From positions 332,010,001 through 332,074,000 of the forward strand of contig OZ024741.1 in assembly GCA_964016885.1 (NCBI GenBank): 64,000 nucleotides of DNA, in the 5' to 3' direction. The stretch's first letter is position 1; the number at the start of each line of letters is the position of its first letter. The notes beneath the pieces are model-generated. The model made no database searches. It had not been told where the DNA came from and saw nothing but the letters and a program-made list of their open reading frames with translations. This stretch comes from Eledone cirrhosa (taxonomy: Eukaryota). This document shows, in pieces, positions 19,421 to 20,833 of this stretch. Made by a program: the position numbers and the translations under genes.

Positions 19421-20833
19421 ATTTAATATATCTACTAACATAAGCGCACAGATGTACGCTAATGCCAGCAAATACACATGTTATGTCATAGTACCTAGGT
19501 GGTTCAATGCAGGAGGATGCAGAACAATAATATAAAAGACGTAAAATAAGAAAATAAAAAAAAAAAATTTTAAAGAATTAACTTACTTACTTAAATTTTC
19601 ACTCCAACTAATTAGTTTCTGCAATGGGATAAAGACAGTTACGTAATGAACTGTTGAGAATTTCATTGCGTCATCAGGGAGGTCTATTCTCAGCCAAGTT
19701 TCCAGGCAATGCGCGGACACTGGGGACTCATATAAAAATAATAATAATTCGGTAAATGGAACAGCTATCGAGGACTGGATTCCAGGCACTGAACATTCTC
19801 ACTGCCACTGGTCAAATGGCCGATTCTAAAGAATCAATCACGTGACACAGAGGCTAGTCAGTAGGAATTATTATTATTTTTATATGAGTCCCCAGTGTCC
19901 GCGCATTGCCTGGAGACTTGGCTGAGAATAGACCTCCCTGATGACGCAATGAAATTCTCAACAGTTCATTACGTAACTGTCTTTATCCCATTGCAGAAAC
20001 TAATTAGTTGGAGTGAAAATTTAAGTAAGTAAGTTAATTCTTAAAAAATTTTTTTTTTAATTTTCTTATTTTACGTCTTTTATATATATATATATATATA
20101 TATATATATATATATATATAGAGAGAGAGAGAGAGAGAGAGAGAGAGAGAGAGAGAGAGAGAGAGAGAGAGAGAGAGAATTTAATATATCTACTAACATA
20201 AGCGCACAGATGTACGCTAATGCCAGCAAATACACAGGTTATGTCATAGTACCTAGGTGGTTCAATGCAGGAGGATGCAGAACAATAATATAAAAGACGT
20301 AAAATAAGAAAATAAAAAAAAAAATTTTTAAAGAATTAACTTACTTAAATTTTCACTCCAACTAATTAGTTTCTGCAATGGGATAAAGACAGTTACGTAA
20401 TGAACTGTTGAGAATTTCATTGCGTCATCAGGGAGGTCTATTCTCAGCCAAGTCTCCAGGCAATGCGCGGACACTGGGGACTCATATAAAAATAATAATA
20501 ATTCGGTAAATGGAACAGCTATCGAGGACTGGATTTCAGGCACTGAACATTCTCACTGCCACTGGTCAAATGGCCGATTCTAAAGAATCAATCACGTGAC
20601 ACAGAGGCTAGTCAGTAGGAATTATTATTATTTTTATATGATTCCCCAGTGTCCGCGCATTGCCTGGAGACTTGGCTGAGAATAGACCTCCCTGATGACG
20701 CAATGAAATTCTCAACAGTTCATTACGTAACTGTCTTTATCCCATTGCAGAAACTAATTAGTTCGAGTGAAAATTTAAGTAAGTAAGTTAATTCTTTAAA
20801 TTTTTTTTTTTAATTTTCTTATTTTACGTCTTT
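19421..20833. mobile_element. Tandem dimer of a ~660-bp fold-back element, each unit with two opposite-strand hammerheads
   Basis: Units 19421-20083 and 20178-20833 are near-identical; each has ~220-bp inverted arms around a ~115-bp spacer; the units are separated by (TA)n(GA)n. Confidence 0.85.
19934..20013 (+). ncRNA. Type I hammerhead ribozyme with long helix II (copies 19602-19681 -, 20356-20435 -, 20688-20767 +)
   Basis: CUCC-CUGAUGA-C-GCAAUG...CAUUGC-A-GAAACUA-AU-UAGUU-GGAG; palindromic helix III (AACUAAUUAGUU); cut site GUU; helix I only 4 bp. Confidence 0.7.

What the first reader, a model, noticed from the sequence alone, without database searches (positions are those of the whole stretch)
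19421..20833. Tandem dimer of fold-back units giving four hammerheads, two per strand about 750 nt apart
Same-strand ribozymes are spaced 754 nt (19934 to 20688; 19602 to 20356). Cleavage at both would release a unit-length RNA, the retrozyme-like architecture that yields circular RNAs. Tandem copies would also allow the dimeric fold that palindromic helix III needs. The unique spacer contains CACGTGAC (E-box) and may be a promoter. The two units differ at only a few positions.
Basis: partly seen in the sequence, partly recalled or inferred. Interest (0 to 1): 0.72.

Follow-up and report, generated by a model that had tools for sequence, protein, structure and literature searches.

The report
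Duplicated Penelope-made ribozyme repeat insertion
This is one head-to-head insertion of a 550-base non-coding repeat that occurs thousands of times in this animal genome and carries a predicted self-cutting RNA, present twice side by side; the 750-base spacing is likely a by-product of local duplication, while the family's paired short and long ends likely record a Penelope-type jumping-gene enzyme copying the RNA from both sides of a DNA cut.

Summary
The dimer, the fold-backs and the 754-nt spacing are real, but only three of the four hammerheads are intact (G1.1C at 20764). The natural unit is not 754 nt: the arms and the 'unique' spacer are pieces of a 530-556-nt non-coding monomer with one type I hammerhead (9,169 exact motif copies in the genome). 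Each window unit is one head-to-head insertion in (TA)n, and both share one inversion junction. In a 754-nt RNA the hammerhead is predicted to be locked in a 200-bp duplex, so the proposed circle is unlikely. The family fact is better: of 97 inverted insertions, 82 pair one short with one long end, 1 is short-short, 0 long-long, 14 unclassifiable. Both ends are followed by the same small hairpin that follows both ends of three autonomous Hydra-type Penelope families here. Best reading: a retrozyme-type passenger of Hydra-clade Penelope enzymes, primed from both target strands. No parent element, cleavage or RNA was shown; reads did not settle the duplication. The scan noted what looks like this family (e1-10322590), the short/long rule and the twin hairpins (e1-10328151) before on other DNA.

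The parts
19384..19419 (.). Left target microsatellite: (AT)12 then AGAT x3 at the long end of unit 1
   Evidence: Sequence
19414..19750 (-). Unit 1 left arm: monomer positions 1-337, ending at the long (L) end
   Evidence: BLAST to a real monomer copy, 99%
19427..19478 (-). Long tail hairpin (about 21-23 bp) just inside the L end
   Evidence: Fold z -4.45 on this strand, -0.95 on the other; pair counts in 23 copies; coordinates
19502..19525 (-). Small bulged hairpin (YTC-stem-TN-GAR) about 5 nt 3' of the short (S) end position
   Evidence: 154 of 167 internal copies; same motif after both ends of Hydra-type families
19602..19681 (-). Type I hammerhead L1, intact; predicted cut after 19606
19751..19868 (-).
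19865..19868 (.). Inversion junction, 4-nt overlap GAAT between the two arms
   Evidence: the 27-mer occurs 3 times in the genome
19865..20085 (+). Unit 1 right arm: monomer positions 1-221, ending at the S end
19934..20013 (+). Type I hammerhead R1, intact; predicted cut after 20009
20086..20173 (.). Microsatellite between the units, (AT)n then (AG)n; the (AG)n run is the long-end addition of unit 2
   Evidence: Sequence; similar runs at other L ends
20174..20504 (-). Unit 2 left arm (positions 1-335, L end), with tail hairpins at 20185-20236 and 20260-20283
20356..20435 (-). Type I hammerhead L2, intact; predicted cut after 20360
20505..20622 (-). Unit 2 monomer positions 439-556 with the same junction (20619-20622)
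20619..20839 (+). Unit 2 right arm (positions 1-221, S end)
20688..20767 (+). Hammerhead R2 with G1.1C at 20764; helix I first pair broken
20840..21049 (.). Right target microsatellite (TA)n
   Evidence: Sequence

Best explanation
The region holds two adjacent copies of one head-to-head insertion of a 530-556-nt non-coding repeat with one hammerhead motif per unit, likely made by a Hydra-clade Penelope-like enzyme acting in trans and likely duplicated in place afterwards. Shown: family, monomer, two fixed ends, their pairing, (TA)n targets, the shared junction, covariation in the hammerhead and tail. Inferred mechanism: a multimeric or circular family RNA is bound by a Penelope RT-endonuclease; both strands of a (TA)n target are cut; one 3' end primes copying at the short site and the other at the long site, each placed by the small bulged hairpin 3-6 nt further 3' and helped by an AUAU match to the target; the two cDNAs grow toward each other, join at a chance microhomology (GAAT here) and are filled in. 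The insertion was then copied between its flanking (TA)n tracts. The 754-nt spacing has no role of its own; the hammerheads would work, if at all, in native head-to-tail RNA, where two copies can pair their palindromic helix III.
For: 9,169 exact copies of a 22-nt hammerhead motif, control 0. Monomer and window map. Inverted insertions: 82 of 97 short+long, 1 short+short, 0 long+long, 14 unclassifiable, in three samples (29 of 35 and 33 of 38; 20 of 24); the window counts twice. 162 of 164 S or L ends abut a microsatellite, 3 of 16 other ends do (samples A and B). Junction positions vary; 19 of 32 young junctions overlap by 1-12 nt. 75 of 85 young arms run through the cut site and only 3 stop at it, so linear cleaved monomers were not the template. 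Hammerhead covariation 0.262 vs 0.117 shuffled, 0 of 500. Tail folds on the sense strand only. Hairpin motif after S 154 of 167, after L 104 of 110; Hydra-type A 7 of 9 and 9 of 10, B 36 of 37 and 26 of 26, C both ends in one copy; background about 1% of positions; 0 of 3 and 0 of 4 after ends of two non-Hydra families. The layout matches published Penelope insertions (PMC3846280, PMC8557442) and two RT start sites on both strands in vitro (PMC11167929).
Against: No autonomous element shares the monomer's sequence: none among 50 GIY-YIG loci or three Hydra-type families. The two units have different long-end additions ((ATCT)3 vs (CT)n), which a plain DNA duplication does not explain. One Hydra-type C locus (L287) has short ends on both arms. 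In vitro, the anole element showed no strand difference in start site and no homology to the target (PMC11167929). Circle versus linear multimer is unresolved.
Confidence: 0.75

Rival explanations
1. One reading: the dimer is a functional unit whose same-strand hammerheads release a 754-nt RNA that circularises.
For: Spacing is 754 on both strands; both minus-strand motifs are intact; helix III is palindromic (self-duplex -9.0 kcal/mol).
Against: Helix II probability 0.00 in that RNA on both strands; R2 has G1.1C; native spacing 522-571; the junction 27-mer occurs only here twice and at one unrelated locus; no other same-junction dimer among 136 loci mapped.
Confidence: 0.04
2. The second unit is a retro-copy: the finished fold-back was transcribed, primed afresh at its long end and inserted into its own flanking (TA)n.
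For: The long-end additions differ between units, and both types occur at independent insertions; the arms differ only by changes private to one unit, so the copy arose soon after the insertion.
Against: No dispersed copy of this fold-back exists: the third junction match (L101) is another subfamily with the ends swapped; such an RNA would be mostly duplex; microsatellite mutation could remake an end.
Confidence: 0.12
3. The dimer is an assembly artefact: two alleles of one insertion placed in tandem.
For: The units differ by about 0.75% (5 of 665), an allele-like level (inference); reads laid here could not span both units.
Against: Only the element between (TA)n tracts is doubled, no flank; the contig is 416 Mb long, which suggests a long-read assembly (inference).
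Confidence: 0.1
4. The family is spread by a non-Hydra Penelope enzyme (such as the L079 or L091 type), or the fold-back forms by one-sided priming followed by snap-back rather than by two primings.
For: Those families are abundant, also end in (TA)n, and one chimera joins an L091-type 3' end to the monomer (L154). Arkhipova et al. proposed self-priming for head-to-head junctions (PMC3846280).
Against: The chimera is single-copy; their ends lack the hairpin (0 of 7); snap-back would not place the second arm's outer end at a fixed site different from the first in 82 of 83 classifiable cases.
Confidence: 0.15

Closest known systems
Animal non-LTR retrozymes (Cervera and de la Pena 2020, PMC7229834, passages and section 14 seen; Li, Clavereau and Pollet 2026, bioRxiv 10.64898/2026.07.22.740005, parts 1-3 of 5 seen)
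   Same: Non-coding tandem monomers with one type I hammerhead each, thousands of copies, proposed to be non-autonomous passengers of Penelope-like elements.
   Different: Monomer 530-556 nt (170-400 nt in the 2020 paper, within the 51-972 bp of the 2026 one). The parts read do not describe inverted insertions or two fixed ends. Circular RNA and cleavage are shown there, not here.
Insertions of endonuclease-positive Penelope-like elements (Arkhipova et al. 2013, PMC3846280, passages; Craig et al. 2021, PMC8557442, passages and section 11)
   Same: Partial tandems, a head-to-head inverted 5'-truncated copy, a tail on one end only, microhomology junctions, (TA)n targets.
   Different: No RT or endonuclease gene; tail about 110-120 nt instead of 30-40 bp; the one-short-one-long rule is near strict here and only qualitative there.
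Hydra clade of Penelope-like elements (PMC8557442 section 11)
   Same: Three families in this genome carry DKT and CxCX5C, insert in (TA)n, have two ends 83-90 nt apart and the same hairpin after each end.
   Different: No sequence homology between their ends and the monomer; different hammerheads; clade assigned by motifs, not by a tree with reference proteins.
[quoted passage not shown]
   Same: Short helix I, long helix II, an unpaired base between 9 and 10.1, G10.1-C11.1, palindromic helix III; pairs on opposite strands 100-700 bp apart were reported there.
   Different: An extra invariant A before G12 (or a C-A mismatch) and a second covarying hairpin on top of helix II.
Anole Poseidon element in vitro (Frangieh et al. 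2024, PMC11167929, parts 1-2 of 4 and passages)
   Same: Both target strands cut and extended; two internal RT start sites bound the tail; uncleaved RNA is the main template.
   Different: No strand difference in start site and no target homology were seen there; here the sites come in short+long pairs and both end in ATAT.

Membership tests
Type I minimal hammerhead of PLEs | Core CUGANGA ... GAAA ... UH in type I order | tested here: met
   All four motifs; no Rfam match at gathering score
Type I minimal hammerhead of PLEs | Helix I of 4-5 bp closing the core | tested here: met
   Met in 3 of 4; R2 has G1.1C
Type I minimal hammerhead of PLEs | Long helix II, unpaired base after A9, G10.1-C11.1 | tested here: met
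   6 bp, 98% paired, four pair types at one position in 27 copies; an extra A before G12 departs from the published consensus
Type I minimal hammerhead of PLEs | Palindromic helix III | tested here: met
   ACUAAUUAGU; its invariance is by selection of the rows
Type I minimal hammerhead of PLEs | Self-cleavage (as dimer or protein-assisted) | not testable with these tools
   Needs an assay; alone the motif is predicted to prefer an inactive fold (-14.7 vs -11.9 kcal/mol)
Non-LTR retrozyme | Head-to-tail monomers, one type I hammerhead each | tested here: met
   Met for the family (39 of 40 spacings 522-571 nt; arrays of 5-6 monomers); the window units hold less than one monomer per arm
Non-LTR retrozyme | No protein coding | tested here: met
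   Longest ATG frame 29 aa over six frames of one monomer read across its boundary
Non-LTR retrozyme | Abundant circular RNA of monomer length | not testable with these tools
   Needs RNA data or bench work
Non-LTR retrozyme | Target-site duplication | tested here: inconclusive
   Ends lie in microsatellites, where none can be read
EN+ Penelope-like insertion | Partial tandem plus head-to-head inverted 5'-truncated copy | tested here: met
   97 of 149 insertions inverted
EN+ Penelope-like insertion | Tail on one end only | tested here: met
   82 of 83 classifiable inverted insertions; tail 110-120 nt, not 30-40
EN+ Penelope-like element (autonomous) | RT plus GIY-YIG reading frame between pLTRs | tested here: not met
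Non-autonomous derivative of a known PLE family | Sequence homology to an autonomous pLTR | tested here: inconclusive
   None in 50 GIY-YIG loci and three Hydra-type families, a small sample of tens of thousands of candidates; only the hairpin motif is shared
Plant LTR retrozyme (two ribozymes around a unique core) | Type III hammerheads in direct LTRs | tested here: not met
   Type I motifs, inverted arms, non-unique core; definition from the 2026 preprint, part 1

The most novel reading that the evidence does not exclude
Hydra-clade Penelope enzymes read a twin RNA signal, one small bulged hairpin after each of two start sites, and always use one site for each strand of the cut target; this 550-nt retrozyme spreads by mimicking that twin signal without sharing sequence with any coding element. 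The genomic short+long rule would then be a read-out of an asymmetric dimeric enzyme, and the two hairpins a portable cis-signal for inserting any RNA into (TA)n.
Probability: 0.5. Interest if true: 0.65.

Novelty: new member of a known kind. Interest (0 to 1): 0.4.

Why it matters
The flagged dimer itself is an incidental, locally doubled insertion. The family matters more: how Penelope-like elements make inverted, one-tailed insertions is an open question in the papers read (PMC8557442, PMC11167929), and the link between animal retrozymes and these elements has rested on co-occurrence and pLTR similarity (2026 preprint). A near-strict short+long pairing and a hairpin shared with coding Hydra-type families give concrete, mutable predictions for an existing in vitro assay. 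I did not find the strict pairing or the hairpin in seven literature searches; supplements were not read.

Tried and rejected
Rfam scan: no hammerhead family matched. Sequencing runs: no RNA holder listed, which is no evidence on expression. Laying contigs and RAD reads: the junction is covered at low depth in X1-X3 (8.7-15.8 in the last bin), two unit-1 private alleles appear in X3 only, no piece spans both units, and the left flank is itself repetitive, so the duplication is untested. Type III reading of the motif: rejected by eye, no helix I. Variable-cargo spacers: rejected, all spacers are monomer sequence. A possible intron (GTAAGT...CTAG) and coding remnant in the tail: no frame kept, no RNA to test. 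Parent search: GIY-YIG Pfam hits, an older-subfamily query and three Hydra-type families gave none; L087, L048, L214 are separate nested insertions; L154 is a single chimera. Apparent short-short cases in the table were due to unlisted rows; mapping the fetched loci gave 0. Circle versus linear template by tree: monomers of one array tend to group but differ by 1-29 changes, inconclusive. Published Hydra consensus sequences were not used as queries, so a match to a catalogued family remains open.

Full report
OBSERVATION. The window holds two near-identical units, 19421-20085 and 20179-20839 (97.9%), each an inverted pair of 202-221-nt arms around 114 nt, flanked and separated by (TA)n-type microsatellites. 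My scan found type I hammerhead motifs with cores at 19938(+), 19677(-) and 20431(-): helix I CTCC/GGAG, core CTGATGA, a 6-bp helix II, GAAA, palindromic helix III, cut after GUU. The fourth (20688-20767) has C for G at position 1.1. Same-strand spacing is 754 on both strands. Rfam has no matching model at gathering score.

THE REAL UNIT. A genome search with arm and spacer gave 137 matches from 39 scored of 2,819 candidates; an exact 22-nt motif occurs 9,169 times, control 0. The loci show a head-to-tail monomer of about 530-556 nt; 39 full monomers are 72-99% identical; 39 of 40 neighbouring motifs inside insertions lie 522-571 nt apart. Against one real copy (M, 556 nt) each window unit reads M337-1 and M556-439 on the minus strand, then M1-221 on the plus strand, with a 4-nt overlap. 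So the spacer is ordinary monomer and each unit is a single head-to-head insertion. The junction 27-mer occurs three times: twice here and once in another subfamily with the ends swapped.

THE RIBOZYME. From 141 motif copies (68 distinct) I aligned 27 that differ by at least about 4 changes. Helix II and an upper hairpin covary: score 0.262 against 0.117 shuffled, 0 of 500; one helix II pair shows four pair types; slid controls pair 34-48%. Core and helix III were fixed by the extraction pattern and prove nothing; relatedness inflates such scores. The features match the minimal hammerheads of Penelope pLTRs (PMC4209133, parts 1-2 of 4 read), with one extra A before G12. Alone, the motif is predicted to prefer a fold in which the core pairs with helix III, which a second copy could relieve. 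Cleavage is untested.

THE END RULE. Arms end at two fixed sites, S (M221) and L (about M331-343), 110-120 nt apart. Sample A (38 loci, biased to the window's subfamily and junction; 44 insertions): 35 inverted, 29 S+L, 1 S+S, 5 unclassifiable; the window counts twice and L066 merges two insertions. Sample B (59 of about 63 sites among the first 100 motif hits on one contig; 63 insertions): 38 inverted, 33 S+L, 5 unclassifiable. Sample C (39 loci of an older subfamily; 42 insertions): 24 inverted, 20 S+L, 4 unclassifiable. No L+L. The other 52 are single-direction calls, some with an inverted stub too short to score. In A and B, 162 of 164 S or L ends abut a microsatellite, against 3 of 16 other ends; either arm can be the longer in B (16 vs 17); 19 of 32 young junctions overlap by 1-12 nt, 3 are blunt, 10 have extra or unaligned letters. 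75 of 85 young arms cross the cut site, 24 of them more than once, and 3 stop within 6 nt of it, about what chance gives: the template was uncut multimer or circle. A tree did not separate these.

THE SIGNAL. The tail folds on the hammerhead strand only (z -4.45 vs -0.95); 29 pairs are 97.9% kept in 23 copies chosen from 67 distinct, with 14 double changes (0 of 500 shuffles) and many G-U swaps. A motif YTC-stem-TN-GAR starts 3-6 nt after S in 154 of 167 and after L in 104 of 110 internal copies (the L pattern fixes part of the stem; that hairpin is weak). Three coding families found from reading frames beside family loci (713, 784 and 821 aa) carry DKT and CxCX5C, the Hydra marks in PMC8557442 section 11; they also have two ends 83-90 nt apart, each followed by the motif (A 7 of 9, 9 of 10; B 36 of 37, 26 of 26; C read in one copy), against about 1% of window positions and 0 of 7 ends in two DKG-type or related families. 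The descriptor is post hoc, one family-C locus has S on both arms, and none of these families shares sequence with the monomer, nor do 50 GIY-YIG loci.

MECHANISM. Published Penelope insertions have partial tandems, an inverted truncated copy and a tail on one end (PMC3846280, passages; PMC8557442, passages); a purified anole element cuts and extends both strands and starts at two internal sites that bound the tail, using uncleaved RNA (PMC11167929, parts 1-2 of 4). I infer two primings per insertion, one per target strand, one at S and one at L, joined by microhomology. The strict pairing suggests an asymmetric dimer on one RNA; that step is inference and differs from the in vitro result of no strand preference.

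THE DIMER. Identical junction and doubling of only the stretch between (TA)n tracts point to local duplication, soon after insertion, since arm differences are private to one unit. Against this, the long-end additions differ ((ATCT)3 vs (CT)n), both types seen at independent insertions; a retro-copy of the fold-back or an allele artefact are not excluded. Reads could not decide.

VERDICT. A new member of a known kind: a non-LTR-retrozyme-type, non-autonomous passenger of Penelope-like elements (PMC7229834, passages and section 14; 2026 preprint, parts 1-3 of 5). The host looks like a cephalopod (cadherin-repeat gene, repeat content; my recall, not tested); a 2026 octopus repeat annotation does not contain the words ribozyme or hammerhead (PMC13282606, passages). 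I reached the monomer and the S+L rule before seeing earlier notes, which report them on other DNA; they are not independent proof. Supplements of PMC8557442 and PMC11167929 were not opened and bioRxiv supplements are closed; they may already hold this family or the hairpins.

Noticed in passing
window 16980-17200: A second, unrelated head-to-head hammerhead pair (CTGAAGA core, cuts near 17009 and 17102) between (TA)n tracts, with a tail on one side only and the same bulged hairpin at 17139.
   Followed up: partly
window 17729-17783 (-): Hammerhead-like end resembling the pLTR of Hydra-type family C (compare, by eye).
   Followed up: partly
window 45650-45800 and 57055-57132 (-): Further type I hammerhead motifs of other families; the one at 45700 sits in a fold-back, the one at 57132 has a 57-nt helix II arm.
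   Followed up: no
window 19218-19383: The left flank is itself high-copy repeat ending in TTTCATAT at the same (TA)n tract (depth up to 1e5): nested insertions share the tract.
   Followed up: partly
window 1173-3701 (+): 843-aa open frame with five cadherin repeats (PF00028, E 3e-69), probably a protocadherin-type exon.
   Followed up: partly
L079, L091 and related loci: Abundant RT plus GIY-YIG families with a U3-A8 hammerhead core (TTGAAAA); the L091 type often has GCAA for GAAA.
   Followed up: no
L154:3100-3300: Single-copy chimera of a coding Penelope 3' end joined to monomer position 19 on the same strand.
   Followed up: yes
L259-L292: Hydra-type families B and C have many copies with full 784- and 821-aa frames and equal scores, some in tandem arrays, a sign of recent activity.
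   Followed up: partly
window 12450-12507 and 21060-21230: A tRNA-like Rfam hit and a tRNA-derived SINE-like repeat (label from recall) right of the dimer.
   Followed up: no
family long ends: Runs of (CT)n or (ATCT)n are often added at the L end, possibly repeated slippage at priming.
   Followed up: partly
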